Source: an uncultured Alphaproteobacteria bacterium
GTDB taxonomy: Bacteria; Pseudomonadota; Alphaproteobacteria; CAAHEQ01; UBA3637
Assembly (NCBI GenBank): GCA_944392795.1
Contig: CALXXX010000006.1
Location: 18,485 to 82,484 of the forward strand
Direction: 5' to 3'
Length of the DNA stretch: 64,000 nucleotides
Shown: in pieces, positions 25,953 through 54,906 of the stretch
Layout: the number at the start of each line of letters is the position of its first letter
Position numbering within the stretch: the first letter of the stretch is position 1
The notes under the pieces: generated by a model
Databases searched by the model: none
What the model was told of the DNA's origin: nothing
What the model saw: only the letters and a program-made list of their open reading frames with translations
Program-made: the position numbers and the translations under genes

Positions 25953-27152
25953 ATGACCCAAGAAGGAACTCAAGTAACGACACCTCAAATACAATATGTT
26001 GGAGATGGTGTTCAGACAAATTTTAGCTTTTCCTTTCAAATCTTTGAAGAAAGTAATTTGAAAGTTTATTTAGGGAGTGTTTTACAACAAAAAGGCTATA
26101 CAGTTCAGAAGGAAGAAGAAAGTTTAGGGGGAACAGTTATTTTTAATGAAGCTCCGGTATCTGGTGAGCTTATTACTTTAGTACGAGAGCTTGATTTAGA
26201 GCGGACAACAGATTTCGCTTCCGGAGGCGTTTTACGAGCTGCTGATTTAAACTATGAGTTTGATTATCAAATGGGATGTTTGCAACAATTATCTTCTGGA
26301 TTGAGCCGTTCTTTATTGTTGCCTGTTTTTGAAAATAAAGAGGGGATTGATTTTAGCTTACCAGCACCTGAGGCTAATAAAGCTCTTGTCTGGAATGCAC
26401 AAGGTAATTCGTTGATGAATAGTCAAGTTGAAATAGGGAATTTAGATGCTTCTCTTACTCAGGCAGTATCAACAGTTTCTGATTTGGCTGAAGAGGTCAG
26501 TCAAATGAAAGAAAATGCTCAAGAAGCTGCAACGACAGCTACGACGCAAGCAGCAATAGCGACACAGAAAGCACAAGAAGTTCAGCAGAACTTCTCTAAT
26601 TTATATCCTTTTCATGTCAATTCGAACAGTTGTGATTTAAATAGCTTAACAGCCTCAGGAATTTATGAAGTGATAGCTTCGGCGCATTATCCTTTAGATA
26701 CAGGATATTATCATGTTGAGGTATATGTTCCGTCACAAGGTAATATAGTTCAGACAGCTTATGCAGTTGGTGCAAGTATGGGAGGGTATCCAGCTACTTA
26801 TCGTCGTCGTTTTATAAACAGTGCTTGGGAAGATTGGCTTCAGATTTCTAATGAAGGAATGGGGAGTCCTTCAGGGCAAGTGATTAATATTTCTGTAGAA
26901 AGTGCCGGAGAACAACATGTTTTAAATTCTCCTGCAAATGGATTTTATTGCTTGATAGGTTTATCAACTGCAGCTTCTCAGGAAGTTTATTTGAGTAATT
27001 CAGTAAATGGTATGGCTGTTTTAAGCTCTGCAACAGCTCCATCTAAGAATCTCGCAATTTTCTTGCCGGTCTCAGCTAATCAAAATGTGCGCTATTTATA
27101 TACAACAGCAGGTACAGTGACATTGAAATTTATTTATGCGAAAGGAGTTTAA
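25953..27152 (+). CDS. Phage T7 gp17-like tail-fibre protein (N-terminal tail-attachment domain plus a divergent C-terminal domain)
   Basis: N-terminus QYVGDGVQTNFSFSFQIFEESNLKVYL...TDFASGGVLRAADLNYEFDYQ parallels T7 gp17 YQLDGSNRDFNIPFEY...VDFTDGSILRAYDLNVAQIQ. Confidence 0.65.
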   Translation: MTQEGTQVTTPQIQYVGDGVQTNFSFSFQIFEESNLKVYLGSVLQQKGYTVQKEEESLGGTVIFNEAPVSGELITLVRELDLERTTDFASGGVLRAADLNYEFDYQMGCLQQLSSGLSRSLLLPVFENKEGIDFSLPAPEANKALVWNAQGNSLMNSQVEIGNLDASLTQAVSTVSDLAEEVSQMKENAQEAATTATTQAAIATQKAQEVQQNFSNLYPFHVNSNSCDLNSLTASGIYEVIASAHYPLDTGYYHVEVYVPSQGNIVQTAYAVGASMGGYPATYRRRFINSAWEDWLQISNEGMGSPSGQVINISVESAGEQHVLNSPANGFYCLIGLSTAASQEVYLSNSVNGMAVLSSATAPSKNLAIFLPVSANQNVRYLYTTAGTVTLKFIYAKGV

Positions 27153-27153
27153 G

Positions 27154-27441
27154 ATGTATTATATTATTGATGAAAAAGGACAAATAAAAATGTCTGCAGA
27201 TTTTCGTTTTTCAGAAAACTGTATAGAAACAGAAAAAAATATTGTGACAGGTTTTGATGGAAAACTTTATTTTGAAGGAGAAGAACCTGTAAAACCAGAG
27301 CCAACTTATATTGAGCTTCGGCAGGCGGCGTATCCTCCTATTTCTGATCAGTTAGATATGTTATATTGGGATGCAGTAAACGGGACGACGATATGGAAAG
27401 ATACAATTTCAGAGATTAAAACACAATATCCTAAAAGTTGA
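27154..27441 (+). CDS. Small hypothetical protein (95 aa), possible tail-fibre partner or chaperone
   Basis: The start MYYIIDEKG is preceded by the RBS aaaggag. It is followed by a terminator at 27446-27476. Confidence 0.45.
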   Translation: MYYIIDEKGQIKMSADFRFSENCIETEKNIVTGFDGKLYFEGEEPVKPEPTYIELRQAAYPPISDQLDMLYWDAVNGTTIWKDTISEIKTQYPKS

Positions 27442-27550: not shown

Positions 27551-28300
27551 ATGAAAAGAAATGTCGGTATTGTGGGATGTGGTGTTATTGGAGGTGCTTT
27601 AAAGGAATGGCTTGAAAACCATACAGAGCATACGGTACTTGTATCAGATCCACCTAAAGGTTATAATGATGATTTATCAACATGTGATGTTATTTTTATG
27701 AGCCTACATGTTCCAACAGAGAAAGATGGAACACAAGATTTATCTCTTTATAAAAGTCTTTTAAGAACATTACCTGATCATACACCTATTTTTATTCGGA
27801 CGAGTATTTTGCCAGGAACTTCTGCTCAGTTAGCACAAGAGACAGGAAAAGAAGTATACTTTATGCCAGAGTTTTTAACTGAGCGAACTTCTGTCTCAGA
27901 TTTTGAACATCAAGATATTATTTTTACGGCACATGTTGATTTACTAAAGGAAATTTTTCCTGGCAAAAAATATCAAGTTATGTCTTCGATTGAAGCTGAA
28001 ATTGCAAAATATGTTCACAATGTTTTTGGTGCATTAAAAGTCACTTATTTTAATGCTGTATATGACTATTGTCAAAAAATGGGGGCAGATTATAAGACTG
28101 TTCAAAAAGGCGTTTTAATGTCGGGTTATATCAATCCAACGCATACATTTGTTCCTGGACCTGATGGCAAATTTGGATACGGAGGAAAATGTTTTCCAAA
28201 AGATGTCAATGCTTTTGCAAAAGCGACAGAACATGAAAACTTAGGAAAAATATTGGCGGTTATTGCACCGTTAAATGATAAATTCAGAAATAATAAATAA
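27551..28300 (+). CDS. UDP-glucose/GDP-mannose 6-dehydrogenase-family protein, C-terminally truncated (249 aa; the UDP-binding domain is absent)
   Basis: Rossmann GIVGCGVIGG. PEFLTERTSVSDF matches Ugd PEFLREGKALYD. The catalytic-Cys region GYGGKCFPKDVNAF matches GYGGYCLPKDT. The ORF ends ~140 aa early compared with Ugd. Confidence 0.55.
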   Translation: MKRNVGIVGCGVIGGALKEWLENHTEHTVLVSDPPKGYNDDLSTCDVIFMSLHVPTEKDGTQDLSLYKSLLRTLPDHTPIFIRTSILPGTSAQLAQETGKEVYFMPEFLTERTSVSDFEHQDIIFTAHVDLLKEIFPGKKYQVMSSIEAEIAKYVHNVFGALKVTYFNAVYDYCQKMGADYKTVQKGVLMSGYINPTHTFVPGPDGKFGYGGKCFPKDVNAFAKATEHENLGKILAVIAPLNDKFRNNK

Positions 28301-28318: not shown

Positions 28319-30481
28319 ATGACTGAAGGCTTGATTAAAGTAAGTGTTATTCTTCCTATTTATAATGTAGAAAAATATATTTCACAAAGCCTAGATAGTT
28401 TACTTAATCAGACTTTAAAAGAAATTGCAATTATTTGTGTCGATGATGGTTCTACTGATAATACTCCTAAAATTTTAGAGGACTATCGTCAAAAAGATAG
28501 TCGAATTCATGTTATCAGGCAAAAAAATCAATATGCTGGGGTGGCTCGTAATAATGGGTTTGAGTATCAATTGCGGTTGCCAGGCGGTGGTGCTCCGTAT
28601 GTTATTTTCTTAGATCCAGATGACATATATGCTAAAGATATGTTGGAAAAACTGTATAATCGAGCTATTGAAACAAAAGCTGATGTTGTTTTGTCTCATT
28701 TAAATTATATTATTGATAATCGTGTAAGCTTTCGACCTTCTAGTTTTTATGAAAGTTATTTGATACACAAATACATAAAAGATGTTTTTTCTTGGAAAGA
28801 AATAGGCGGTGATGTTTTCTTTTTCCATGTTTATCCTTTTAATAAATTATGTTCTGTAGATTTTCTTCAGAAAAACCACTTTCGCTTTCAAGGTGTTAGA
28901 AATACAAATGATGCTGTTTTCGGATTAGATATTATTAGCTTCGCAGAGAGAATTGCACATATTGCGGATGCGCCGTATTTTTATCGTTTTAATCGAGATA
29001 ATAATACCCGAACGACGAAAGGAAAAAATTTAGATAGTGTATTATTGGCTTATGATGAGGCTTTAAGACATATTCAAAAGCATCCTGACTATGAAAAGAT
29101 AAAACCACAATTTTTATTGGCTCTTGTTCAATTTTATGCTTTTCATATTTATACATATTGTGTTAAGGAAGATAAGAAAAAAGAGTGTTTTTCTCTTATC
29201 TCAAAACAAAAAGATTTTTTTCATAAAGCTCAGGCTTTTATTAGAAAAACTTATTTAGAGACGCCAGATGTGTTAATCATGCAAAGGTATGCATTCCCAA
29301 AACAATTACCTAGAACAGAAGATTTAGGTTTGCATATAGAGCGTTTTTTAAAACAAAAAAAATTTTCTATATACAAAAAAATTAAACATTTTATATGGCA
29401 TCAAAAAGCAAAAAATGACATAATAAAAATGTATTTATTGGGCTTTCTTATTTTTAAAAAAGAAAAAAAACAAAACAAAACCATATGTAAGGTTTTAGGA
29501 ATTTCATTATATAAAGAAAAGAAAAAAAATAATATTATAATCGGGAAATTATGTGGAATTAAGATTTTTAAATCCAAGGCACTTCCATATAAAAGAATCT
29601 TGTCTCAGATGATTCATAAGGCTGATATACATAGAGGAGAAGATGCATATATTCTTTTTGTGAATAGTGGAGAAACATATTTAGTTGCTCAAGTTTTAAA
29701 GGATTTCTACCAGAAGGAAAGGCCTAATAGACCTAAAATTATTGTTCCTCGATTATATCAAAAAATAATTATATCTATGTATGCTCCTTGGGCAGATGTT
29801 GTTGTTTTTCCTGAAAAAAATGAAAATTATCGTCATGTTTGTAGATATATAGAGAAAAAATCTTATATAAAAGGAGTTCATTTTAAAAATATTATACCAA
29901 TAGATATGTGGTATGGTGAGGAAGTTAAAAAAGTTCATTATTTTTCTTTAATTATGAAGATGATGGGACTTCCGATTGAAAAAACATGTTTATTTCAAAA
30001 GCCTCAATTTATTTCATTCGGTAAAAAATGGGGTGTACAACAACGTTTTTTACAGATGAATTTAAATAGAGATCGCTTTATATTTCTTTCTCCAGAGGCT
30101 ACAACAATTTCTCCAATACCTAATCATTTATGGCAAGATTTTATAGATAAAGTGAGAGAAAAAGGATATGATGTATTTTTAAACACAACTTGTTCACCTC
30201 AGTTAGAGGGATGTAAAAGTTGTTTTTTAGATTTTGAAGAAGCGTATGAGCTAGCTTCTTATGCTAAAGCTATTATTGGTTTGAGGAGTGGTTTTTTAGA
30301 AACATTAACAACAATAAATACACCATTCCATGTAATTTATAATAGGGATATACAAGGTAATAACAATCGTCTTCTTCGTAATACTTTATTAAAATTACCA
30401 GGTGTTCATCCGGAACAAATACATGAATATGATTATTTGAAAAATCCAAGATGTTTGGAAGATATCTTGAAATTGTTATAA
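28319..30481 (+). CDS. Multidomain glycosyltransferase: N-terminal GT2, central Lys-rich ~19-aa repeats, C-terminal GT9 (heptosyltransferase)-like domain
   Basis: GT2 motif ILPIYNVEKYISQSLDSLLNQT...CVDDGSTDNT. Repeats MYLLGFLIFKKEKKQNKTI / CKVLGISLYKEKKKNNIII / GKLCGIKIFKSK. C-terminus FIFLSPEATT...IIGLRSGFLE is GT9-like. Confidence 0.6.
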   Translation: MTEGLIKVSVILPIYNVEKYISQSLDSLLNQTLKEIAIICVDDGSTDNTPKILEDYRQKDSRIHVIRQKNQYAGVARNNGFEYQLRLPGGGAPYVIFLDPDDIYAKDMLEKLYNRAIETKADVVLSHLNYIIDNRVSFRPSSFYESYLIHKYIKDVFSWKEIGGDVFFFHVYPFNKLCSVDFLQKNHFRFQGVRNTNDAVFGLDIISFAERIAHIADAPYFYRFNRDNNTRTTKGKNLDSVLLAYDEALRHIQKHPDYEKIKPQFLLALVQFYAFHIYTYCVKEDKKKECFSLISKQKDFFHKAQAFIRKTYLETPDVLIMQRYAFPKQLPRTEDLGLHIERFLKQKKFSIYKKIKHFIWHQKAKNDIIKMYLLGFLIFKKEKKQNKTICKVLGISLYKEKKKNNIIIGKLCGIKIFKSKALPYKRILSQMIHKADIHRGEDAYILFVNSGETYLVAQVLKDFYQKERPNRPKIIVPRLYQKIIISMYAPWADVVVFPEKNENYRHVCRYIEKKSYIKGVHFKNIIPIDMWYGEEVKKVHYFSLIMKMMGLPIEKTCLFQKPQFISFGKKWGVQQRFLQMNLNRDRFIFLSPEATTISPIPNHLWQDFIDKVREKGYDVFLNTTCSPQLEGCKSCFLDFEEAYELASYAKAIIGLRSGFLETLTTINTPFHVIYNRDIQGNNNRLLRNTLLKLPGVHPEQIHEYDYLKNPRCLEDILKLL

Positions 30482-30485
30482 ATTT

Positions 30486-32639
30486 TTAATTTATTTTTTC
30501 AAGAATATCGTCTATGACAGAATCATAATCTTCCGGTCGAATTCGAAAGTATTCATAGCAATTGTTTGTTTGTGTAATGAGATTAATGCTATAAACTTCC
30601 TGAACCCATTTATTAACATCAACTAAGAAAGAAAAGTGAGCCGGATGGCGATCTAAATAAAAAATAAATTTTTTAGCTTTTGTTTCTTGCATACATTCTG
30701 AAAACCCACTTCGTCCTGCGATCATGTAGCCGCACAGCTCAATAAAATGAAATGTTGCTGAAAAGTTTAAGAAAATTTTGTGAACATGAGTATTCAGAAC
30801 AGTATCGTAGGCCGTTCCTTTCGTATTAATAACGATATCAAAATGACGTTTTCTGAAGGAGTTGATTAACTTCTCCATCAATTCTATTGGAAAGTTTCCA
30901 AAAAAGTCTGTTTCTGGGGATAAAAATATTACTTTATTTTGGGTTAGTTTTAAATTTTTGAATGCTGTTTCAGCTTCTTTAATAGCTTGTTGAGAAATAT
31001 GGGGAAGTTCATGAGGCGTGTTTTGGTCTAACAATAAGAAGTCTTTAATAACATGATTGATTGGATAAAAATGCCATTGTTTTTTATCATCTGTAAATGT
31101 TTGAATACCATGTACTTGATCTTTCCATCCATGCTTAGTTTCACGAATCGTGATGTAATTTAATAATTTACCTTTTGCATTATAGAAAAAACCGGAAGAA
31201 GGAGTAAAATGTTTGATATGAATAAAATGAGTATCGATATAGTCTTTTGAAAAACCAAACATTTCAAGTATTTGTTTAGTATAAGGGAAAAAACTACCAA
31301 TAAAAACTTCTTGTTTTAGTTTTTTTTGGAGCTCTCTTAATAGACTAAAAATATAATAGCTCTCACCAGAATGATAATTCAGGTAAAGGAATGGATGCCC
31401 ATTGGCTTGTTTACGTAAAAAGGACATCCAATTGTTAAAAGCTTCTGTTCTAAAATTCTTATTATGATAAACTTTGATGCCCAAAATAGAGATAATTAAT
31501 TTTTTGTTTTTGACTTTTCGGCTAAAGAAAGGAATACCCAAAACAGAAATATTCATTTTATAAGAATTTTTGTGATTTACATAGCGTATAATTCCACCCA
31601 ATAATTTATATTTTTCATTTTTTTTCCTAAAAATAGGAAATCCAAAAATTTCATACTTTAAATTATCCTTTTTTGTTTCCTTTTTGAAAAAAGGAATAAA
31701 GTTAAATAAGAAAATGCGCTTTTTATTATTTTTTTCTTTAAAACGCAATAGAGGAATGATGCCAAATAAATAAATTTTTTTCTTTTTGGGTAAAGCTTGA
31801 TGAAGTAAAATCTCTTCCTGAATATCTTGAATATTAAAAAGTGTTTTAAACGAAAATACAGAATACGTTTTTTTGTCGGTTGAATAATAAACATAAAGTT
31901 TTCTATTAGGTGCAAAGGCAATTAAATCGCATAAACCACTTCGTAAGGCATGTACTTCGTGGCAGTATGTTGCAAGCATGATTACTTCTTCTAAATTTAA
32001 AGGGATATTAGGTACTCCTTTAATGAGAGATTCTTCCTTCGTTATATTAGATACGACGATATATCCTTTATTAAGAAAATTATGAGCTAATTTTTCCCAA
32101 AAACGAGGGGATAAAGGCGGAACGGAATTTGCCTCTGGTAATAATAAAACTATTTTTTCTAACGGGCCATATTGAGCTAATTTTTCTTTTAATCTTTGAG
32201 AGAGAACGGGATATTTAAATGGTTTTGAAAATGAAGCAGTCGTAGGTAATTTTAGAAAATCCTTATACCAGCTTAAGAATGTCAAATGTTCGCGATGTTC
32301 TTTCATCTCTTGAACGAACTTTTTAGCCCAAGGGTGAAAATCTGGATGAGCAACAAATATTTTTCCTAATTCTGGTTTCGGCGTTTTTAAAGCAAAAGAA
32401 AAAAGAGAGGCTTTGTCAAAAGAGGCGATAACATAATCTTTAGTGTCATATAGCTGCGCAACAATCATATGAGAGGGTTTAATGATGAAATGAACTTTCC
32501 CCTTTAATTGCTTTTCTATTTCTTTTTTTAAGCCGATCAGGCAAAGAGAATCTCCCAATCCGCATGGAGATAGGAAATAATAAACATCTGATCTGCCTTT
32601 AAAAGAGCTTAAGTCATTGATGACAGATGAAGAATTCAT
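30486..32639 (-). CDS. Multidomain glycosyltransferase with two GT9-like modules flanking an array of ~6 Lys-rich 19-20-aa repeats
   Basis: N-module FLSPCGLGDSLCLIG (GT9 GxGD motif). C-module VIFLSPETDF...MIAGRSGFSE. The central repeats follow the pattern h-h-G-I-P-h-F-x-K-K-x-x-K. Confidence 0.55.
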   Translation of the reverse strand: MNSSSVINDLSSFKGRSDVYYFLSPCGLGDSLCLIGLKKEIEKQLKGKVHFIIKPSHMIVAQLYDTKDYVIASFDKASLFSFALKTPKPELGKIFVAHPDFHPWAKKFVQEMKEHREHLTFLSWYKDFLKLPTTASFSKPFKYPVLSQRLKEKLAQYGPLEKIVLLLPEANSVPPLSPRFWEKLAHNFLNKGYIVVSNITKEESLIKGVPNIPLNLEEVIMLATYCHEVHALRSGLCDLIAFAPNRKLYVYYSTDKKTYSVFSFKTLFNIQDIQEEILLHQALPKKKKIYLFGIIPLLRFKEKNNKKRIFLFNFIPFFKKETKKDNLKYEIFGFPIFRKKNEKYKLLGGIIRYVNHKNSYKMNISVLGIPFFSRKVKNKKLIISILGIKVYHNKNFRTEAFNNWMSFLRKQANGHPFLYLNYHSGESYYIFSLLRELQKKLKQEVFIGSFFPYTKQILEMFGFSKDYIDTHFIHIKHFTPSSGFFYNAKGKLLNYITIRETKHGWKDQVHGIQTFTDDKKQWHFYPINHVIKDFLLLDQNTPHELPHISQQAIKEAETAFKNLKLTQNKVIFLSPETDFFGNFPIELMEKLINSFRKRHFDIVINTKGTAYDTVLNTHVHKIFLNFSATFHFIELCGYMIAGRSGFSECMQETKAKKFIFYLDRHPAHFSFLVDVNKWVQEVYSINLITQTNNCYEYFRIRPEDYDSVIDDILEKIN

Positions 32640-32648
32640 AAAAAGCCT

Positions 32649-33878
32649 CTATAGATTGATATTTTGAACAAATTTAATCGCCTCATACATTGAAACATCA
32701 GCATTTTGGTATTGCCATTGTCCCCATCTTCCAACGCCAAACAAGTGTTGAGGATGATAATACTCCAGAACATTCTTAATTGCTTGAGCATGTCCGATAA
32801 CAGGAATTGGATAAGCAGCTTGTGTTTCAAAATGAGCTAATGCTTTTGTTCCCATAACAGGATCATCTCCTTGGAAACGTTTAATATTTGTTTCAATATA
32901 AATACCATTTTTCTTGCTGTCGAAAGCAAAGTTAGAAATATAAAATTCCCGATGATAACGACGATTGATATCCGGAACATAGCGCCAATGCCAATTGACA
33001 TCGTAGTCTTTTTCATATAAAGAAACGACGATACGGTTGTATTGCATTTTTGCAAAATCATCTTTTAGAACAGAAGGTTCACCTAAAGCTTTGAACAAAT
33101 CAGGCCAAGGAGCTGTGTTTATTACATTTTTTGCTTGATATTGTTCATTGATGAGCCATGTTCCATCTGCTTGATATTGCATTTTCGTGACAGGCGTATT
33201 GAGAACGACATTAGAAGCTTCATCTTTGTAGATTGCATCAAAAATAGCTTGGAAGCCGCCTTTTTTAGGGTAGTAGAAGCCTATATGAGCAGGGAATTTC
33301 GTGACGTCTTGCTTACGATCCAAACTGTATTTTAAAACTTCTTCCACATTAACACGTGGAATTTTGTATAACCAGTCGACATCCATTTCGGCAGGTGTGA
33401 CTCCCCAAAGCTTAGTATTGTAAGGGATCATATAAGTGTCACAGATTTTATCACCTAGTTTCCAGCGAATCCATTCTTCATAATTTTTTGGTTCAGGTTT
33501 TCCTAAAGATTCTCCATTACGAATGACAGAGATTAAATAGGAAATCTGTTCATCTTGAGGTAATTGCCACAAGTTAGATTCAATAGGATAGTCAATGGTT
33601 GTTTCGCCAATTAACTGCTTTGAAACTCGTGGAATAAAATTAAATTCGCTTTCGGGAATATGGCTGAAAATATAGTCATAAACTTCTTGATGCTTTGTTC
33701 CAAAAAAGTGTCCACCGCCGATATCTAAAATATGACCATCAATTATTTTGGTCGTACATAAACCACCAGCTTCTTTTCCAGCTTCCAGAACCACAACGTT
33801 TTTAATGCCTTTTTCTTTTAATTTTTTGCATAAAGTAACACCAGTGACTCCTGCACCAATAATCAGATAATCATACAT
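32649..33878 (-). CDS. glf: UDP-galactopyranose mutase
   Basis: FAD-binding MYDYLIIGAGVTG at the N-terminus and Glf-family motifs throughout. The true start at 33878 has the RBS aaggaaaa. Confidence 0.85.
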   Translation of the reverse strand: MYDYLIIGAGVTGVTLCKKLKEKGIKNVVVLEAGKEAGGLCTTKIIDGHILDIGGGHFFGTKHQEVYDYIFSHIPESEFNFIPRVSKQLIGETTIDYPIESNLWQLPQDEQISYLISVIRNGESLGKPEPKNYEEWIRWKLGDKICDTYMIPYNTKLWGVTPAEMDVDWLYKIPRVNVEEVLKYSLDRKQDVTKFPAHIGFYYPKKGGFQAIFDAIYKDEASNVVLNTPVTKMQYQADGTWLINEQYQAKNVINTAPWPDLFKALGEPSVLKDDFAKMQYNRIVVSLYEKDYDVNWHWRYVPDINRRYHREFYISNFAFDSKKNGIYIETNIKRFQGDDPVMGTKALAHFETQAAYPIPVIGHAQAIKNVLEYYHPQHLFGVGRWGQWQYQNADVSMYEAIKFVQNINL

Positions 33879-33889
33879 TCTCTTTTCCT

Positions 33890-34948
33890 TTATAAAGATT
33901 GATACCAAGTATAGAAAGCTTGAATGCCTTCTTCCAAAGAAATCTTTGGTTCCCACCCCAAAGCTTTAATTCGTGTGGCATCCATCATTTTTCGCGGTGT
34001 CCCATTCGGCTTTGAAGTATCATACTCAATTTTCCCTTGATAATTGGTAATACGTTTTGTTAATTCAAACAAATTCTTCAATTGAATATCATCACCTTTT
34101 GTAATATTAACAAATTCACCAATTTCGTTATAATCTTTGTTATTCATCAAGTAAATACAAGCATCGGCTAAGTCATCTGAACACATCATTTCGCGATAAA
34201 CTGAACCATCTCCCCACATAACCACTTTATCTGAATATACTCCTACTTTTTCTAAAGCTTTTAAAAGATTATTTTGGTCGTTAAAATCAAGATGTTCATC
34301 TAATCCCCAACCTAATTTATAGCGCTTTAAATCTGTTTTAATCGCATCCCAATCATTTTGCATCAATAACTTTGCTAAATGGAAACGACGCATGATAACC
34401 GGTAATAAGTGCCCGGTTTCCATATTAAAGTTATCTCCTTGACCATATTGATTGGTCGGCATGACTGAAATAAAGTTTGTTCCATATTGTTTATTATAAT
34501 ATTGGCAAAGTTTAATAGCCGATATTTTTGCAAGAGCATACGCTTCATTTGTTTTTTCTAGTTCTCCAGTTAACAGAGCTTCTTCCTTCATCGGTTGAGG
34601 CGCCATACGTGGATAGATACAAGAAGAGCCTAAATTTAAGAGTTTTTTGACACCTGTTTTATACGCACTATCAATTACATTACAAGCGATCATCAGATTT
34701 TGATAAATAAACTCAGCAGGGTAAGTTGAATTTGCCATAATTCCCCCCACTTTTGCAGCTGCCAAAAGAACATATTCTGGCTTTTCTTGCTCAAAGAAAG
34801 AAAGTGTCTGAGCCTGATTTGTTAAATCTAATTCAGAAAAAGTTCTTGTAATAATGTTAGTATAACCAGCTTTTTTTAAGCCTCGATGAATGGCAGAACC
34901 AACCAAGCCCATATGTCCTGCTAAATAAATCTTTGCATCTTTTTCCAT
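33890..34948 (-). CDS. fcl: GDP-L-fucose synthase (GDP-4-keto-6-deoxy-D-mannose 3,5-epimerase/4-reductase)
   Basis: KIYLAGHMGLVGSAI...LLAAAKVGGI...YGQGDNF. It contains a ~30-aa insertion relative to the typical ~320-aa Fcl. Confidence 0.85.
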   Translation of the reverse strand: MEKDAKIYLAGHMGLVGSAIHRGLKKAGYTNIITRTFSELDLTNQAQTLSFFEQEKPEYVLLAAAKVGGIMANSTYPAEFIYQNLMIACNVIDSAYKTGVKKLLNLGSSCIYPRMAPQPMKEEALLTGELEKTNEAYALAKISAIKLCQYYNKQYGTNFISVMPTNQYGQGDNFNMETGHLLPVIMRRFHLAKLLMQNDWDAIKTDLKRYKLGWGLDEHLDFNDQNNLLKALEKVGVYSDKVVMWGDGSVYREMMCSDDLADACIYLMNNKDYNEIGEFVNITKGDDIQLKNLFELTKRITNYQGKIEYDTSKPNGTPRKMMDATRIKALGWEPKISLEEGIQAFYTWYQSL

Positions 34949-34953
34949 ATTAT

Positions 34954-36048
34954 TTACACCTCCTGAGGGATTAAAACCTGATATCCATTTCCTGTTAAGA
35001 ATTTTTCACGCATTGCTTCTTTCATATCAGATTCAACCATATCTTTAACCAACTCTTCTAAAGAATGTTCTGCTTTCCAACCCAACTTCTTTTCAGCTTT
35101 ACTAGGGTCTCCTAATAATAAATCGACTTCTGCGGGACGAAAGTATTTTGGATCTACTTCGATAAGGACATTGCCGGTGGCGGCATCAATTCCTTTTTCG
35201 TTTATGCCTTCACCTTCCCATTTTAACTGATATCCTAATTCTTTAAAGACCAAGTTACAAAAATCTCGAATTGTTGTTGTTTTTCCGGTCGCTAAAACAA
35301 AGTCTTCAGCTTTTTCTTGTTGAAGCATTAACCACATGCCTTTTACATAATCTTTTGCATGTCCCCAGTCGCGTTTTGAAGATAAGTTACCTAAGTAGAG
35401 TTTATCTTGCATACCAAGGCGGATTCGAACAGCAGCTCTGGTAATTTTTCGTGTAACAAATGTTTCTCCTCGACGAGGGCTTTCATGGTTGAATAGAATG
35501 CCATTACAAGCAAACATGCCATAGCTTTCACGGTAGTTAACCGTAATCCAGTAAGCATATAATTTAGCACAACCATAGGGGGAACGAGGATAAAAAGGCG
35601 TCGTTTCCTTTTGAGGTGTTTCTTGTACGAGTCCGTAGAGTTCAGAAGTTGAGGCTTGATAAAATCTTGTTTTCTTTTCTAAACCAAGGATACGAATAGC
35701 CTCTAAGAAACGTAATGTTCCGATACCATCAGCATTTGCAGTATATTCTGGAACATCAAAAGAGACTTTAACATGTGATTGAGCGGCTAAATTATAAATC
35801 TCATCAGGCTGAATTTCTTGTAAGAGACGAATGATATTGCTTGTGTCTGTTAAATCTGCATAATGTAAATAAAAATTACGATTCGCACTATGAGTATCTT
35901 GATATAAATGATCGATGCGAGCTGAGTTAAAGGAGGAAGCACGTCGTTTCATTCCATGCACTTCATATCCTTTTTCCAATAATAACTCTGCTAAATATGA
36001 ACCATCTTGTCCGGTAACACCGGTAATTAAAGCCACTTTTTTTGTCAT
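34954..36048 (-). CDS. gmd: GDP-mannose 4,6-dehydratase
   Basis: [29 protein letters not shown] and the SDR catalytic region. Confidence 0.9.
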
Positions 36049-36056
36049 TATCTATC

Positions 36057-36488
36057 CTATTTTTTCCAATTATTTAAAATCCACGAAGAAGAATTCATTT
36101 TATTTTCTCCTCCAACTCCGAAACGTAACTCAACTTGATAGGCTTTACAAGTATCAATTTCTGGAATATTTGTTTGTGTTCTGTCTCCGCCGTTTGCAAA
36201 AACAAGTCGATCATGTGGGTATTTCTGACGAGCCTTACGAATACCATCACTTGCGGAGTTATCAGAATCATCAAAACTAATTACGTCTATAACGCCTTTG
36301 ATATTTTCACAGATTGTTTGGCGTGTCTTTTGAGACATAAAATTTTTCCCTTTCTTCCGACATAACCACTCATCTGAATTTAAAAGTAAAATAACGCCAT
36401 CCGATTCTTTTTGTGAGGCTTTAATCATTTCAATATGACCTTCATGAATAGGATCAAACCCTCCACTGACAATGTAGTAAGTTTTCAT
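36057..36488 (-). CDS. Cytidylyl/adenylyl-transferase-like protein (HldE domain II / heptose-1-phosphate adenylyltransferase-like)
   Basis: Nucleotidyltransferase HxGH motif VSGGFDPIHEGHI, then LLNSDEW...KG and ...FANGGD. Confidence 0.65.
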   Translation of the reverse strand: MKTYYIVSGGFDPIHEGHIEMIKASQKESDGVILLLNSDEWLCRKKGKNFMSQKTRQTICENIKGVIDVISFDDSDNSASDGIRKARQKYPHDRLVFANGGDRTQTNIPEIDTCKAYQVELRFGVGGENKMNSSSWILNNWKK

Positions 36489-36621
36489 TTTTTTTTGTCT
36501 TTCTTTTATGAATAGTTGAAGGAATTATAATAGATAAAAACTGAAAAGCAAGTAGAAAATCTTTTAAGTTCAATATTTTTTTTAATCGTATCCATTTTTG
36601 TTTAAAATGGTATTTTTATAG

Positions 36622-37482
36622 TTATTCTTGAGGTAGATGCCATCCTTCTTTTTTTGTATAAAAAAGAATTTTGTTAGTATGAAGATATTTATACTTATCC
36701 TTTTTGCGCCAAAGATGACGTTGTTTCCAAAGGTGATAAATTGTCTTTAAAGAAATTTTTTCTTTTCCTACAATTTCTTCCATTTCTTTTCGGTATTGAA
36801 AAATATTTTCTGATAATTGGCCAGGTCGGGTGCGGGCAGCGGCTAAAAAAGTGTTAGCTATATAAAGAGGCGTTTGTTGAGCAAAAGACCACCATAGATA
36901 AAAATCTCCGGCCAAATGAAAAGAAGAGAATTTTTTATAATTGAAATTATTCATTAACGAACGTCTCCAAAAAGTCGTTTCTTGTTGAATAAAAGGGAGT
37001 TGATTTCCATAATAACCTTTTAAAATATCTTGTTGAAAATATTCAAAAGGAAGACGATTAAAGATGATATTTCCTTTTTCGTCTGTCGTACATTGACGGC
37101 TGCATAACCAAGAAATCTGAGGATATTTGTCGAAAATGGAACAGGCAAACTCAAAGGCATTAGGTAGATAATAATCATCAGCGTTAATATAGGCCATAAT
37201 ATCCCCTGTTGCTAGTTTGAAGCCTTTTGCAATTCCGTCATACATACCTTGATCTTTTTCTGATATTACTTTCATTTCAATCCGAGGCTTTAGAAGAAGA
37301 TCTTGTTTTTGTTTTAAATTATCTTGAAAATTTGAAATGATCTGTAGGCTCTTATCAGAGGATAAGCCATCAATTATAATATACTCCAGATCAAAGTTTC
37401 CTTTTTGTGAAACGACACTGTTTAAGGTTTCATAAATATATTTATCGCAGTTGAGACAAGGTGTTATAATTGATATTTTCAT
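36622..37482 (-). CDS. Glycosyltransferase family 2
   Basis: ISIITPCLN...IIIDGLSSD...NADDY (DxD). Confidence 0.75.
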   Translation of the reverse strand: MKISIITPCLNCDKYIYETLNSVVSQKGNFDLEYIIIDGLSSDKSLQIISNFQDNLKQKQDLLLKPRIEMKVISEKDQGMYDGIAKGFKLATGDIMAYINADDYYLPNAFEFACSIFDKYPQISWLCSRQCTTDEKGNIIFNRLPFEYFQQDILKGYYGNQLPFIQQETTFWRRSLMNNFNYKKFSSFHLAGDFYLWWSFAQQTPLYIANTFLAAARTRPGQLSENIFQYRKEMEEIVGKEKISLKTIYHLWKQRHLWRKKDKYKYLHTNKILFYTKKEGWHLPQE

Positions 37483-37518
37483 CTTATAGTGGTTTCTTTT
37501 TAATTTATTTTTTTACTT

Positions 37519-38718
37519 TTAGTTTAATATTGTTTTTAGTAAAGTAAAGCAGTTTTTTGAAAAACTTTCTCGAGAGTAATGTTGTGTAAAATAATCTTGT
37601 AAAAAGCGGATGTCATTTTCAACTTCTGTCATATCTTTTTGATAAAAAGTATGTAGAGCTTCTTCAATTTCAGATATAGAACATGTTTCAAGATAAATAC
37701 CTTTTCCTTTAGGTAAATCAATTCCGGCATCTCGGCTAATAATAGGATATAAACCTGCGTTTAAAGCCGTAATTGCTGCGGTTGATGTTGCTTCTGAGCC
37801 AGAAGCATTTACGAAGGCAACGCATTTTGATAAAATTTGCTTGAACAAATCTGAATTAGGTTGAACTAAACCATAACAATGGATATTTTTTGTTTCAAAT
37901 AACTCTTTTTGATAGACTTCTACAAAATCTTTTTCTGACTGGATTTTTCCGGCAATGTGCAAATGCCATTCAGGGTGCTTTGAAAAAACTTCTAAAAGGC
38001 GATCTAAGCCTTTTAAAATAGCTCCTGCACCGCCGATCCATAAGATACCCCTGTCGCTAGGAGGAGGAATAAAATCTTTTTGTTTTGCTGTATTGCTTAA
38101 ATCGGAACCGGTTAAATTTAATAAGTGAATTTTTGAACGTAAATTTTTAGGGTATGTATTAAGGGTGTGCTTATTTCCAAGCAAAATAGCGATATCAGCT
38201 TTTTCTAAAGAAGAGCGCAATTCCTGAGCATCATCTAAAAAACGCTTAGGTTGACAACAAGCTTTTCTACGTTGATTAAGAGATTGGCATCTTTGTTGTT
38301 CTTTTTGATTCTGATAGAAAGGATCACTTCCTGTTAGATATTGTACTTTTAAGCAGTTCGGAGGTAGTTTCCAAAAATTAAAATGAGTTCCTAAATCAAT
38401 AATGACACGATAATCTTTATGTGGCTTAAAAAGAAGATTTTTGTAAAAAATAACATCAACATTGTAGCCTAGTTTAAGTAGAGATTGCACTAGTTCTTTA
38501 TTTTCCCATTGATTAGAGTGATATTGAAAAAGGCTTTTTTTCTTTGGTTCTATGGCCCAGTCTACTAGGTAAGAGACAAGAGCCCATGGAGCATCAGATT
38601 TTGTTATAAAAGAAGCTTCCTCTTTTATAAGAAGAGATGTTAAAAAAAGTTGTGCTTTATGGCGCATTTCTCTGTTTGGAATGAAGCAAGTTATGGCCTT
38701 TATTAATTTTTTTTTCAT
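37519..38718 (-). CDS. Glycosyltransferase family 4 (GT-B, GT1-clan)
   Basis: The C-terminal half (ILWIGGAG...FVNASGSEATSTAAITALNAGLYPI) is GT4-like. The start was reassigned to MKKKL, which overlaps the upstream stop (TAATG). Confidence 0.65.
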   Translation of the reverse strand: MKKKLIKAITCFIPNREMRHKAQLFLTSLLIKEEASFITKSDAPWALVSYLVDWAIEPKKKSLFQYHSNQWENKELVQSLLKLGYNVDVIFYKNLLFKPHKDYRVIIDLGTHFNFWKLPPNCLKVQYLTGSDPFYQNQKEQQRCQSLNQRRKACCQPKRFLDDAQELRSSLEKADIAILLGNKHTLNTYPKNLRSKIHLLNLTGSDLSNTAKQKDFIPPPSDRGILWIGGAGAILKGLDRLLEVFSKHPEWHLHIAGKIQSEKDFVEVYQKELFETKNIHCYGLVQPNSDLFKQILSKCVAFVNASGSEATSTAAITALNAGLYPIISRDAGIDLPKGKGIYLETCSISEIEEALHTFYQKDMTEVENDIRFLQDYFTQHYSRESFSKNCFTLLKTILN

Positions 38719-39551
38719 TATAATTTCTCCAATATTTTTCGCTTTAAGGAATTCGCTCCGATCCACAGACAAGATCGTCTGATTTCAGAAGAGGGACATT
38801 GATAAAGAGCTTTTAAAAGAGACAGAGGAAAAATATAGGTTTTTGCAATTTTTTCAAAATCAGCATGAGGACAAAATTGAGAATAGTTTTTACGATATAA
38901 GTAAACTTTTTCTTCGAGATGTAATTCTTCCTTTTGGTCTGTTAATCCGCCTCGGCGAAATGTTGCTAAAGTTTCTTTAATCGCAACGCCGTGATAGCCT
39001 TGAAGATAAAGGCGTAAAATTAAATCATAGTCTCCGATTAACTTGAATTTTTTATCAAAACCGCCTATTTTTTCGAAAATGTCTTTAAAAATAAACATTC
39101 CTGGATGTGGGAAAGGCATATTTCTCAATAATCGTTCCAGTTTTATTTTTCCGATTTCTTGTCCTTTTTTTTTCTCATTAAGAATGATAATAGGCGCATA
39201 AGAGAAATCATATCCTCTCGATAAAGCGTTGACAGCTAATTCAATTGCTTTCGAATTATGGAAATAATCATCGGAATTTAAGAAAGTTATAATCTCACCT
39301 TGAGAAAGTTGAGCTCCTGTATTCATAGCATCATAGATGCCTTGGTCCGGTTTTGAAATATATTTAATCCAGCCTTTTTGTTCATATTTCTTAAGAAGTT
39401 CAATTGTCCCGTCTGTAGAAGCGCCATCAATTATAATATGTTCTGTATCAGTATGGGTTTGTTGTTGGACACTTTTAAGCATTTGAACAAAAGTTTTAAC
39501 ACGTTTTGCTTGAATTAAATTGAAAACAATAGAGATAACTGATACTTTCAT
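38718..39551 (-). CDS. Glycosyltransferase family 2
   Basis: VSVISIVFN...IIIDGASTDGT...NSDDY (DxD). Confidence 0.75.
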   Translation of the reverse strand: MKVSVISIVFNLIQAKRVKTFVQMLKSVQQQTHTDTEHIIIDGASTDGTIELLKKYEQKGWIKYISKPDQGIYDAMNTGAQLSQGEIITFLNSDDYFHNSKAIELAVNALSRGYDFSYAPIIILNEKKKGQEIGKIKLERLLRNMPFPHPGMFIFKDIFEKIGGFDKKFKLIGDYDLILRLYLQGYHGVAIKETLATFRRGGLTDQKEELHLEEKVYLYRKNYSQFCPHADFEKIAKTYIFPLSLLKALYQCPSSEIRRSCLWIGANSLKRKILEKL

Positions 39552-43890: not shown

Positions 43891-45009
43891 ATGTTCTTTT
43901 TTATAACAACAATTTTAACGATTTTAGTCGCAGCTTACATTATTAAATCTTTGGTGTTGCCTCTTTCTGCGGCTTTATGGATTAAAATGATTTTAGCCGG
44001 ATTGATTTTAATTGGTTCTCAAAAAATGGGAATTTATTGGCTTTTGGGAAACATTTTCCCTGTGTTGCAAATGAGAGGTGTTATGATTTTCTTTGGAATT
44101 GCTCAAGCCTGGATTTTTATTATGTTCTTGGGTGTTATAGTGTTAAATCTGTTGAGCTTATTTAAGGTTTTTATTCCAGGGGCTTTGCCGATTATGTTAA
44201 TTGGCACTTTTTTTATTGCTGTTTTTTCCGTGTGGCAAGCTTTGCGTGTCCCTAGTGTTAAGGAGGTAAAAGTTGCTTTGAAAGAACTTCCTTCATCCTG
44301 GCAACCACTTCGGATAGTTCAATTGTCTGATTTGCATATCGGTTCTGGATTTAACGGAAAATGGTTAAAACAGGTCGTTACAAAAGTAAATGATTTATCT
44401 CCTGATTTAATTGTGATTACGGGAGATTTGATAGATGGTTCACCAGCTCAGCTGATGCCTGATTTAGAGCCGTTAAAAGACTTAAAAGCTGCTCAAGGTG
44501 TGTTTATGGTTTATGGTAATCATGAGTATTATTACGGGCCGGAACGATGGATGCCTGCGTTTAAGGAGTTAGGTTTAGATTTAGTTATGAATGAAGCGCG
44601 GCTTTTAACTCATCATGAAACAGCTTTTGCTGTGGGAGGCTTACCGATGCCTGGTGCTAATCGATTTAGTTTGCCCGGACCGCAATTATCTAAAACTTTT
44701 GAAAATATAGGTGGTAATGTTCCCCGTTTTTTGATGGCTCATTATCCAAGCCAAGTTTCGGACGCTGCAAAGCATCAGGTTCTTTTACAGTTTTCTGGCC
44801 ATACACATGGCGGACAGTTGTTTTGGCCTTTTAACCTTTTAGCATCTTCTGCAAATAATGGGTTCTTAAAAGGTTTTTATCAAGTCGGGCCAACACGACT
44901 ATATGTTAGTTCCGGGACCGGTTTGTGGGGAGGTTTCCCCGTCAGGTTGGGAACGAGTCCGGAAATTACACTTTTTATTGTCGAAAAAGCGGAAAAGCTC
45001 GACGCATAA
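43891..45009 (+). CDS. Membrane-anchored calcineurin-like metallophosphoesterase
   Basis: About four N-terminal TM helices, then DLHIG...GDLID...GNHE...GHTHGG. Confidence 0.75.
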   Translation: MFFFITTILTILVAAYIIKSLVLPLSAALWIKMILAGLILIGSQKMGIYWLLGNIFPVLQMRGVMIFFGIAQAWIFIMFLGVIVLNLLSLFKVFIPGALPIMLIGTFFIAVFSVWQALRVPSVKEVKVALKELPSSWQPLRIVQLSDLHIGSGFNGKWLKQVVTKVNDLSPDLIVITGDLIDGSPAQLMPDLEPLKDLKAAQGVFMVYGNHEYYYGPERWMPAFKELGLDLVMNEARLLTHHETAFAVGGLPMPGANRFSLPGPQLSKTFENIGGNVPRFLMAHYPSQVSDAAKHQVLLQFSGHTHGGQLFWPFNLLASSANNGFLKGFYQVGPTRLYVSSGTGLWGGFPVRLGTSPEITLFIVEKAEKLDA

Positions 45010-54852: not shown

Positions 54853-54906
54853 TTTACTATTTTATTTTAAACTACACACAGCTTTATGTATGTTTTAGAG
54901 GTAAAA

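What the first reader, a model, noticed from the sequence alone, without database searches (positions are those of the whole stretch)
28319..32639. Two convergent ~720-aa glycosyltransferases built from GT9 (heptosyltransferase)-like modules separated by lysine-rich ~19-aa repeat arrays
ORF 28319-30481 is GT2 (DxD, N-terminal) + 3 Lys-rich repeats + a GT9-like C-terminal module (FIFLSPEATT...GLRSGFLE). ORF 30486-32639 on the opposite strand is a GT9-like N-module (FLSPCGLGDS) + ~6 repeats (IYLFGIIPLLRFKEKNNKKR / IFLFNFIPFFKKETKKDNL / IFGFPIFRKKNEKYKL / LGGIIRYVNHKNSYKMNIS / VLGIPFFSRKVKNKKLIIS / ILGIKVYHNKNF) + a second GT9-like module (VIFLSPETDF...IAGRSGFSE). The repeat unit, hydrophobic-Gly-Ile-Pro-h-F-x-KK-x-K, is shared by both proteins, so the two are paralogous mosaics. 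I do not recognise it from characterised glycosyltransferases. Such amphipathic, basic repeats could be membrane-association spacers or a ruler between two catalytic sites of a polymerase, as in bifunctional capsule polymerases. At DNA level the repeats are A-rich, with A8 tracts at 29463-29470 and 29522-29529 and T7-T8 tracts at 31618-31625 and 31729-31735.
Basis: seen in the sequence. Interest (0 to 1): 0.66.

Follow-up and report, generated by a model that had tools for sequence, protein, structure and literature searches.

The report
Two-module GT9-fold glycosyltransferases with basic β-hairpin repeats
Two tail-to-tail genes in a sugar-polymer locus each encode a double enzyme built from an unannotated, divergent branch of the heptosyltransferase (GT9) fold, joined to a lysine-rich array of short β-hairpins that most likely holds the enzyme on the membrane; it is a modestly interesting new variant of a familiar enzyme type.

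Summary
ORF A (28319-30481, +, 720 aa) and ORF B (30486-32639, -, 717 aa) exist, converge tail-to-tail, and carry 3 and 6 lysine-rich units of 17-20 aa. The periodicity beats 4,996 of 5,000 shuffles for B and 4,980 of 5,000 for A.

The heptose-contacting residues of WaaC (Lys192, Asp261, His266) are replaced, so the donor is probably not ADP-heptose handled the WaaC way.

The repeats are not just a spacer. They are predicted as a β-hairpin meander. They also occur in single-module relatives, before C-type modules and after N-type modules, where other members instead carry basic tails that look like amphipathic helices. I infer a peripheral membrane or lipid-acceptor binding element.

The family has about 2,300 representative clusters and no annotation. 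In Melainabacteria and a Treponema MAG it sits next to a kinase/nucleotidyltransferase/phosphatase set that resembles the heptose-activation pathway.

Verdict: new variant of a known kind, moderate interest. Substrates and membrane binding are untested.

The parts
28319..30481 (+). ORF A, 720 aa: GT2 domain, helical linker, 3 basic hairpin units, GT9-fold C-type module
   Evidence: ORF list; exact protein is in public collections
28343..28834 (+). A residues 9-172: GT2 (GT-A) catalytic domain with DDG and DPDD motifs
   Evidence: Pfam PF00535 E 2.5e-36; NCBIfam GT2-type hits
29420..29581 (+). A residues 368-421: three Lys-rich units (IIKMYLLGFLIFKKEKKQN / KTICKVLGISLYKEKKKNN / IIIGKLCGIKIFKSKA), predicted as a beta-hairpin meander
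   Evidence: Periodicity 20 of 5,000 shuffles. AlphaFold strands at query residues 22-81 (A 361-420), pLDDT 69-82 over most of the array
29624..30478 (+). A residues ~436-720: GT9-fold C-type module with motifs S450-G-E452, P592-E-A594, D618..N622, R656-S-G-F..E661
30486..32639 (-). ORF B, 717 aa: GT9-fold N-type module, 6 basic hairpin units, GT9-fold C-type module
   Evidence: ORF list; 99% and 83% identical orthologues P0001 and P0002
31800..32597 (-). B residues 15-280: GT9-fold N-type module with motifs G29-D30, P168-E-A170, N198, R233-S-G235..D238
31449..31778 (-). B residues 288-397: six Lys-rich units (KIYLFGIIPLLRFKEKNNKK ... ISILGIKVYHNKNFR), net charge +25
   Evidence: Periodicity 4 of 5,000 shuffles. 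Unit HMM 15-23 bits for 5 units, 0 in shuffled family. Predicted as 11 strands but with low confidence, pLDDT 35-52
30489..31412 (-). B residues ~410-717: GT9-fold C-type module (HSGES, SPETD, FDIVIN, GRSGFSE), paralogue of A's C-terminal module
   Evidence: BLASTP A 346-674 vs B 306-661, E 5e-15; aligned in A1 with all invariant motifs
27551..28300 (+). Upstream neighbour: short (249 aa) NDP-sugar dehydrogenase-like protein
   Evidence: Pfam PF00984 6.7e-18; TIGR03026 5.9e-27, covering only part of the profile
32649..39551 (-). Rest of the glycan locus on the minus strand: FAD enzyme distantly like UDP-galactopyranose mutase, GDP-fucose synthase-like epimerase/reductase, GDP-mannose 4,6-dehydratase, 143-aa nucleotidyltransferase (best weak hits: heptose-1-P adenylyltransferase and glycerol-3-P cytidylyltransferase), GT2, GT1-like, GT2
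   Evidence: Pfam and NCBIfam. Same gene order in sister contig L001

Best explanation
A and B are peripheral-membrane, two-module glycosyltransferases of a cell-surface glycan pathway (LPS/LOS outer region or another lipid-linked polysaccharide).

A joins a GT2 module to one module of a divergent, unannotated branch of the GT9 (heptosyltransferase) GT-B fold. B joins two such modules. Each GT9-fold module keeps an acidic residue at the catalytic-base position (LGD in the N-type, SGE in the C-type) and a Ser-Gly phosphate loop (RSG). These features suggest that each module transfers a sugar from a nucleotide-activated donor to a lipid-linked acceptor. Each protein would therefore add two residues, either in sequence or repeatedly.

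The sugar pocket differs from WaaC. Arg replaces Asp261, Asp/Glu replaces His266, and no Lys sits at position 192. The donor is therefore probably not ADP-heptose bound in the canonical way.

The Lys-rich 17-20-aa units fold as beta-hairpins. Each hairpin has an apolar Gly(-Pro) turn at one end of the sheet (for example YLFG-IIPLL) and a Lys/Asn-rich connection at the other. I infer that this array docks the enzyme on the cytoplasmic face of the inner membrane, with apolar tips in the leaflet and lysines on anionic head groups or on the pyrophosphate/phosphate of the acceptor. It would belong to each module rather than acting as a ruler between them.

Shown: the ORFs, the GT2 domain, the GT9 fold, the conserved motifs, the repeat periodicity and charge, and the distribution of the repeats in single-module relatives.

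Inferred: catalytic activity, donor type, acceptor, membrane docking.
For: GT2.

Sequence bridge to GT9: 7 of 36 relatives hit PF01075, best E 1.4e-6.

Active-site mapping: hhalign places GLGD30 on WaaC MGD13, PEA on WaaC 185-188, and RSG..D/E on D261-T-G..H266. WaaC residue roles come from bioRxiv 10.1101/2021.06.16.448588.

Selection on those motifs: they are invariant across 21 and 5 sequences, and the family numbers 2,309 representative clusters at E<=1e-3.

Repeats as hairpins: DSSP strings. In one search the Gly of each unit lies between paired strands (query L35-G36-F37, L54-G55, C73-G74), and the KKQN and NN stretches join the hairpins.

Repeats belong to single modules: standalone C-type proteins begin with them. 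The median is 111 residues before xSGE, with net charge +0.11 per residue against +0.02 for the catalytic part. Standalone N-type proteins P0030, P0031 (4 units), P0033, P0034 and P0051/52 end with them. Others end in basic tails that look by eye like amphipathic helices.

No TM helix: the maximum 19-residue hydropathy is 1.26 and 1.32, and apolar stretches in the repeats are only 8-10 residues.

Glycan context: GDP-fucose genes, three more GTs and a nucleotidyltransferase lie nearby. The host makes LPS (LptC, LpxG-like).

Fusion partners elsewhere are GT2 and GT8.
Against: - No Pfam or NCBIfam model recognises the three modules in A and B.
- The hhalign probabilities against WaaC are low (3-27%). 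The residue mapping therefore rests on consistent register plus the fold match, not on a confident alignment.
- Model coordinates could not be inspected. I could not verify that the conserved residues line the interdomain cleft or how the hairpin sheet packs.
- The hairpin array is predicted with only moderate confidence in A (pLDDT 69-82) and low confidence in B (35-52).
- No biochemical datum exists for any member.
- No flippase, polymerase or ABC exporter was seen within about 10 kb in the window, so the pathway type is unknown.
- A GT-B fold can also serve non-transferase roles. One of the top structural hits, PnsB1, is a structural subunit of a photosynthetic complex.
Confidence: 0.6

Rival explanations
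1. The repeat array is a molecular spacer or ruler (or a flexible linker) that sets the distance between two catalytic sites of a processive polymerase.
For: In A, B and P0005 the array lies between two catalytic modules. B has twice as many units as A. Confidence of the predicted hairpins in the B construct is low (pLDDT 35-52), which is compatible with flexibility.
Against: The same region is present in single-module relatives. It lies at the N-terminus of most C-type proteins (median 111 residues) and at the C-terminus of several N-type proteins. In P0003 it follows the last domain. A ruler between sites has no role in those cases. In A it is predicted as ordered beta structure with pLDDT 69-82 over most of the array.
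Confidence: 0.12
2. The GT9-fold modules are not glycosyltransferases in the strict sense. Instead they transfer a phospho-group-containing unit (sugar-phosphate, polyol-phosphate or similar) from an NDP/CDP-activated donor, as TagF-like and other GT-B-like phosphotransferases do.
For: The heptose-contacting residues of WaaC are replaced, and a conserved Arg appears in the pocket. A small cytidylyl/adenylyl-transferase-like gene sits in the locus, with glycerol-3-P cytidylyltransferase among its best weak hits. TagF appears among Foldseek matches (E about 5e-4).
Confidence: 0.15
3. They are ordinary ADP-heptose-dependent heptosyltransferases of the LPS core that have simply drifted too far for Pfam.
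For: GT9 fold. The host makes LPS. The 143-aa nucleotidyltransferase's best weak hit is heptose-1-P adenylyltransferase (E 1.4e-10, far below cutoff). In relatives the neighbouring isomerase, kinase, phosphatase and nucleotidyltransferase copy the logic of the heptose pathway.
Against: Lys192, Asp261 and His266 of WaaC, which contact the heptose, are not conserved. Asp261 is replaced by an invariant Arg. No GmhA/HldA/GmhB homologues were found beside A and B. The kinase in the relatives' loci is APH-type and the isomerase is KdsD/KpsF-type (SIS+CBS), so the activated sugar there need not be a heptose.
Confidence: 0.12
4. One or more of the GT9-fold modules is catalytically dead and serves only as a scaffold or acceptor-binding domain.
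For: GT-B folds are reused as non-enzymes (PnsB1 is among the top hits). A sister strain splits ORF A without obvious loss of either part.
Against: All three modules keep the full motif set, which is invariant across the family. Standalone single-module relatives are abundant.
Confidence: 0.08

Closest known systems
CAZy family GT9 / Pfam PF01075: LPS heptosyltransferases WaaC and WaaF, Veillonella GT9 (PDB 3tov), autotransporter heptosyltransferase TibC
   Different: No significant PF01075 match for A or B. WaaC's heptose and pyrophosphate contacts Lys192, Asp261 and His266 are replaced (none, Arg, Asp/Glu). The family has its own invariant motifs (PEA, D..N, RSGF.E). It also has an added basic beta-hairpin array, and fusions to GT2, GT8 or a second module.
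Bifunctional two-domain polysaccharide glycosyltransferases and polymerases (for example WbdA-type mannosyltransferases, KfoC/PmHAS-type synthases, TagF-like capsule polymerases with a TPR scaffold). This comparison rests on my own knowledge.
   Same: Two catalytic modules in one polypeptide of about 700 aa, encoded in a surface-glycan locus, with a non-catalytic element between them.
   Different: The modules here are GT9-fold (plus GT2 in A). The intervening element is a beta-hairpin, Lys-rich repeat rather than a TPR or coiled coil, and it is also found on single-module relatives. No ABC exporter or chain-terminator gene was seen beside A and B. Polymerase activity is untested.
Peripheral membrane docking of GT-B enzymes through basic/hydrophobic surface patches or amphipathic helices (MurG, PimA, WaaG). 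This comparison rests on my own knowledge.
   Same: A combination of apolar residues and a strong positive charge, no TM helix, and interchangeability with basic tails that look like amphipathic helices in relatives.
   Different: Here the proposed anchor is a tandem array of 17-20-aa beta-hairpins with Gly(-Pro) apolar turns. I found no named domain or paper for it.

Membership tests
GT9 (CAZy GT9 / Pfam PF01075 heptosyltransferases) | GT-B fold whose closest solved structures are GT9 enzymes | tested here: met
   A C-module: 3tov 18.3, WaaF 17.0, WaaC 16.2, TibC 14.0, next fold 11.0; Foldseek WaaF 6.9e-9. B N-module: WaaF 15.6, 3tov 15.5, WaaC 14.4, TibC 13.4, next 11.2.
GT9 (CAZy GT9 / Pfam PF01075 heptosyltransferases) | Match to the PF01075 profile at or above Pfam's gathering score | tested here: not met
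   No PF01075 hit for A or B even at E<=1. Only 7 of 36 relatives hit it weakly, best E 1.4e-6.
GT9 (CAZy GT9 / Pfam PF01075 heptosyltransferases) | Conserved acidic catalytic base after strand 1 (WaaC Asp13) | tested here: met
   N-type: invariant G29-D30, aligned to WaaC G12-D13. C-type: invariant G-E (A 451-452) at the equivalent place, an Asp-to-Glu change. Role of Asp13.
GT9 (CAZy GT9 / Pfam PF01075 heptosyltransferases) | ADP-heptose contacts Lys192, Asp261, His266 (WaaC numbering) | tested here: not met
   hhalign register gives no Lys at 192, Arg233/Arg656 at 261, and Asp238/Glu661 at 266. Alignment probability is low (3-27%), but the register is the same in three runs and consistent with the fold.
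GT9 (CAZy GT9 / Pfam PF01075 heptosyltransferases) | Transfers heptose from ADP-heptose | not testable with these tools
   Needs enzyme assays.
GT2 (Pfam PF00535), N-terminus of ORF A only | Profile match above threshold and a DxD motif | tested here: met
   E 2.5e-36, 125.6 bits against a 23.3 cutoff, residues 9-172. DDG at 42-44 and DPDD at 99-102 in the translation.
   No Pfam family for the repeat regions alone at E<=10, except a 0.16 noise hit. Predicted all-beta.
Bifunctional capsule/O-antigen polymerases | Two catalytic modules in one chain | tested here: met
   A has GT2 plus a GT9-fold module. B has two GT9-fold modules, each with the full motif set.
Bifunctional capsule/O-antigen polymerases | Co-located export machinery (ABC transporter or Wzx/Wzy) and processive polymerisation | tested here: not met
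   No such Pfam families among the genes within +/-10 kb in the near-identical contig L001. An MsbA-like ABC exporter does occur in 4 of 12 relatives' loci. Processivity is not testable here.

The most novel reading that the evidence does not exclude
The GT9-fold modules define a new glycosyltransferase family at CAZy level. Its donor would be a non-heptose nucleotide sugar, made in many members by a dedicated pathway of KdsD-type isomerase, APH-type anomeric kinase, HAD phosphatase and nucleotidyltransferase. The Lys-rich Gly(-Pro) beta-hairpin array would be a previously undescribed modular monotopic membrane anchor or lipid-acceptor clamp whose copy number (0 to 6) tunes membrane affinity.
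Probability: 0.3. Interest if true: 0.65.

Novelty: new variant of a known kind. Interest (0 to 1): 0.45.

Why it matters
If this reading is right, it gives a fold, a likely active site and a likely donor-supply pathway to a family of about 2,300 sequence clusters that current databases leave as "hypothetical". The family occurs in gut Melainabacteria, spirochaetes and other uncultured diderms.

It also points to a simple, portable beta-hairpin membrane-docking module. Such a module could be tested and reused in glyco-engineering.

The altered sugar pocket makes the family a candidate source of new transferase specificities on the GT9 scaffold. For the organism itself, it identifies the enzymes that probably build much of a strain-variable surface glycan.

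Tried and rejected
- Sequence searches of A's C-module and of B against PDB chains gave only noise (TetR, thrombospondin, E about 1).
- A combined MAFFT alignment on full-length B stacked the C-type homologues onto the N-module. It was not used. B 1-400 was modelled instead, so I have no full-length model and no view of how the two modules sit relative to each other.
- The afdb50 fold library was unavailable.
- A unit HMM built only from B's repeats was overfitted. The iterated HMM still finds only the most regular units, 31 in 16 proteins. Copy number across the family was therefore estimated from the length of the basic N-terminal extension rather than from unit counts.
- Phase variation at the A/T tracts was rejected, because no tract-length change was found between three strains. 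The one real frameshift found is a GA insertion elsewhere in ORF A.
- A transmembrane-helix reading of the repeats was rejected.
- Organism identification failed. Exact-sequence look-ups returned no names, and the single genome-contig scan went on relatives, none from the window's own species.
- Literature searches for GT9-like families, Lys-rich hairpin anchors, or Melainabacteria heptose/GT work found nothing relevant.

Full report
**1. Observation**

ORF A (28319-30481, +, 720 aa) and ORF B (30486-32639, -, 717 aa) are real open reading frames that end 4 nt apart, tail to tail. Both exact proteins are present in public collections, on contigs up to 85 kb. A 99.7% identical copy of the region lies on Logan contig L001 and a 93% identical one in MAG GCA_949282845.1 (L015).

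The repeat is statistically real:
- Hydropathy autocorrelation peaks at lags 17-20. Only 4 of 5,000 shuffles match it for B 286-397, and 20 of 5,000 for A 366-421.
- K+R is 27% in the arrays, with net charge +25 in B and +12 in A.
- A unit HMM scores five B units and two A units at 15-23 bits, and nothing in shuffled sequences.

At DNA level there is no recent tandem duplication. The A8/T8 tracts exist and are enriched (13 against 3.8 +/- 2.0). They are a by-product of AAA Lys codons, and no tract-length change was found between strains wherever the flanks could be matched.

**2. What the modules are**

A 9-172 is a canonical GT2 domain (Pfam E 2.5e-36). Nothing in Pfam or NCBIfam recognises A 340-720 or any part of B, and sequence searches against PDB chains give only noise.

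Internally, A's repeats plus C-terminal module align to B's repeats plus C-terminal module (E 5e-15). A's C-terminal half also aligns to B's N-terminal module (E 1.6e-9). So there are two subtypes of one module:
- The "C-type" (A 436-720, B 410-717) has invariant motifs xSGE, PEA, YDVxxN and RSGFxE.
- The "N-type" (B 15-280) has LGD, PEA, GYxxxxN and LRSGxCD.

An AlphaFold model of A 340-720, built on 21 sequences, has mean pLDDT 81 and pTM 0.77. A model of B 1-400, built on 40 sequences, has pLDDT above 90 across the N-module.

| Entry | A C-module | B N-module |
|---|---|---|
| Veillonella GT9 (3tov) | 18.3 | 15.5 |
| WaaF (1psw) | 17.0 | 15.6 |
| PnsB1 (7wff_a, a GT9-fold subunit) | 16.7 | 14.2 |
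| WaaC (2h1f) | 16.2 | 14.4 |
| TibC (4rap) | 14.0 | 13.4 |
| Best other GT-B fold | 11.0 | 11.2 |

Foldseek on the A model independently puts WaaF, 3tov and WaaC on top (E 7e-9 to 2e-6). Seven of 36 wider family members also reach Pfam GT9 weakly (best E 1.4e-6).

**3. How like a heptosyltransferase?**

The roles of WaaC residues come from bioRxiv 10.1101/2021.06.16.448588. Using these with hhalign against E. coli WaaC/WaaF/WaaU taken from NC_000913 gives this mapping:

| WaaC residue | Role in WaaC | Equivalent in the modules |
|---|---|---|
| Asp13 | Catalytic base | Asp30 in the N-type; invariant Glu (A 452) in the C-type |
| Thr262-Gly263 | Alpha-phosphate loop | Ser-Gly |
| Lys192 | Pyrophosphate and heptose contact | No counterpart |
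| Asp261 | Heptose contact | Invariant Arg |
| His266 | Heptose contact | Asp/Glu |

The hhalign probabilities are low (3-27%), but the register is the same in every run and agrees with the fold match. My reading is that the nucleotide-phosphate and general-base machinery is retained while the sugar pocket is remodelled. The donor is probably not ADP-heptose bound as in WaaC.

**4. What the repeats are**

In the A model the region A 361-420 forms seven beta-strands arranged as hairpins. The conserved Gly of each unit lies in the tight turn between paired strands (YLL-G-FLIF, KVL-G-ISLY, KLC-G-IKIF), and the Lys/Asn-rich stretches connect successive hairpins. pLDDT is 69-82 over most of the array.

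By the topology of a beta-meander, all apolar Gly(-Pro) turns lie on one edge of the sheet and all basic connections on the other.

In the B construct the six units are again predicted as hairpins (11 strands), but with low confidence (pLDDT 35-52).

The repeats are not a named domain and are not helical.

**5. The repeats belong to modules, not to the junction**

Homologues of A 340-720 are mostly standalone proteins of 350-420 aa. They begin with the same kind of basic hairpin region and continue into a C-type module. Among 61 such single-module members, the stretch before xSGE has a median of 111 residues (range 46-136). Its net charge is +0.11 per residue, against +0.02 for the catalytic part.

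Homologues of B's N-type module are mostly standalone proteins of 274-460 aa. Several end in clear copies of the unit:
- P0031 has four ("IRIAGIIPLLRIRTRK", "FYFFNFVPLFGFKRK", "FYLLGIPLLKTEKE", "LKMFGFPLVSIKKK").
- P0030, P0033, P0034 and P0051/52 have one to four.

Others end instead in basic tails that look by eye like amphipathic helices, such as "KQKIKKALKKLPPIKQL". P0003 places its units after a C-terminal GT2 domain.

Neither A nor B has a TM-helix candidate. The apolar stretches in the repeats are only 8-10 residues long.

Together these points argue against a dedicated inter-site ruler. This is an inference and has not been shown.

**6. Family size and context**

The word-indexed search found few relatives (5, 19 and 41). 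An exhaustive HMMER search with the C-type profile found 2,309 representative clusters at E<=1e-3 and 384 at E<=1e-30. These include 630-1,040-aa fusions with GT2, GT8 or an APH-type kinase domain. None carries a functional name.

In one-genome-per-species GTDB, a narrow pattern retrieved 12 loci. They come from Melainabacteria (Gastranaerophilales and Vampirovibrio; the record named "Brachyspira sp. CAG:484" probably belongs with them), a Treponema MAG and an unclassified MAG.

In all 12 loci the family member directly follows a ~122-aa HAD-like phosphatase. In 11 of them a ~500-aa nucleotidyltransferase + APH-type kinase fusion comes just before that (the twelfth locus starts at a contig end). 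In three, a SIS+CBS (KdsD/KpsF-type) sugar-phosphate isomerase sits between. Two or three family paralogues often follow, and sometimes an MsbA-like ABC exporter.

Isomerase, 1-kinase, phosphatase and nucleotidyltransferase is the logic of the ADP/GDP-heptose pathway (my own knowledge). That fits a GT9-type transferase using a donor made in an analogous way, though the enzymes belong to different families and the sugar is unknown.

The window lacks these partner genes. Here A and B sit among:
- a short NDP-sugar dehydrogenase-like gene;
- an FAD enzyme distantly like UDP-galactopyranose mutase;
- GDP-mannose dehydratase and a GDP-fucose synthase-like enzyme;
- a 143-aa nucleotidyltransferase;
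- two GT2 genes and a GT1-like gene.

No flippase, polymerase or exporter lies within +/-10 kb. The host is a diderm that makes LPS, with KdsD-like, LptC and LpxG-like genes. I could not name it.

**7. Mechanism proposed**

A and B are peripheral two-module transferases. They work on a lipid-linked glycan at the cytoplasmic face of the inner membrane, and each adds two residues. A uses a GT2 and a GT9-fold site; B uses two GT9-fold sites. The basic hairpin arrays dock the enzymes on the membrane.

Confidence is about 0.6 for this package. It is high for the fold and architecture, moderate for catalytic competence, and lower for the anchor role and for any statement about the donor.

The rivals (ruler, phosphotransferase chemistry, ordinary heptosyltransferase, dead scaffold) are listed with their evidence and refutation tests.

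**8. Novelty and score**

The fold and the idea of bifunctional surface-glycan transferases are well known. Three things are new:
- a sizeable, unannotated, sequence-divergent GT9-fold family with a remodelled sugar pocket;
- its recurrent Lys-rich beta-hairpin array, for which I found no named domain or paper;
- a conserved link in some lineages to a heptose-pathway-like donor-supply set.

I rate it a new variant of a known kind, with interest 0.45.

Noticed in passing
window 25953-27441 (+): A lone phage tail-fibre-like gene sits between msrA/msrB and the glycan locus with no other phage genes nearby. It is 399 aa, with PHROG 1640 'tail protein' at E 8.7e-20 on residues 9-126 and a weak Pfam T7 tail-fibre N-terminal hit. 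A 101-aa ORF follows it (PHROG 9114, E 4.5e-12). The pair is conserved in sister strains L001 and L015.
   Followed up: partly
window ~29093 in ORF A; L015 2970-2990; L016: In a 93%-identical sister strain, a 2-bp GA insertion (TATGAAAAG to TATGAGAAAAG) splits ORF A. One piece is a 261-aa GT2 protein. The other is a 454-aa repeats + GT9-fold protein that restarts at a TTG. The split is seen in two independent assemblies, MAG GCA_949282845.1 and Logan ERR10610627. It could be a natural domain split or a pseudogene.
   Followed up: yes
window 27551-28300 (+): The NDP-sugar dehydrogenase-like protein is only 249 aa. It matches only profile positions ~70-295 of 413 (TIGR03026), so it lacks the usual C-terminal domain. 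The same length is kept in L001 and L015.
   Followed up: no
L002, L003, L005, L006, L008 (about 1.8-2.5 kb upstream of the match): A small (176-196 aa) tyrosine recombinase/invertase-like gene lies directly upstream of the nucleotidyltransferase-kinase / HAD / GT9-fold operon in 5 of 12 Melainabacteria loci. This suggests invertible-promoter (phase-variable) control of this glycan. Inverted repeats were not searched.
   Followed up: no
L002-L013: There is a conserved operon of a ~500-aa NTP-transferase + APH-type kinase fusion, a ~122-aa minimal HAD phosphatase and, in 3 loci, a SIS+CBS isomerase. This may be an undescribed nucleotide-sugar activation pathway that parallels the heptose pathway.
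   Followed up: partly
window 43891-45009 (+), 800-1852 (+), 95-799 (+): LpxG-like UDP-2,3-diacylglucosamine diphosphatase (weak, below cutoff), LptC and a KdsD-like SIS+CBS protein mark the host as an LPS-producing diderm. The organism could not be named.
   Followed up: partly
window 54886-57924 (+): A 1,012-aa subtilisin-type serine protease has weak hits to the autotransporter peptidase EprS, to mycosin and to the dentilisin subunit PrtP.
   Followed up: no
window 32649-33956 (-) vs 33890-34948 (-): The longest ORF for the FAD enzyme (435 aa, GTG start) overlaps the upstream epimerase gene by 67 nt. Gene calls on the sister contigs give 409 aa, so the true start is probably downstream.
   Followed up: no
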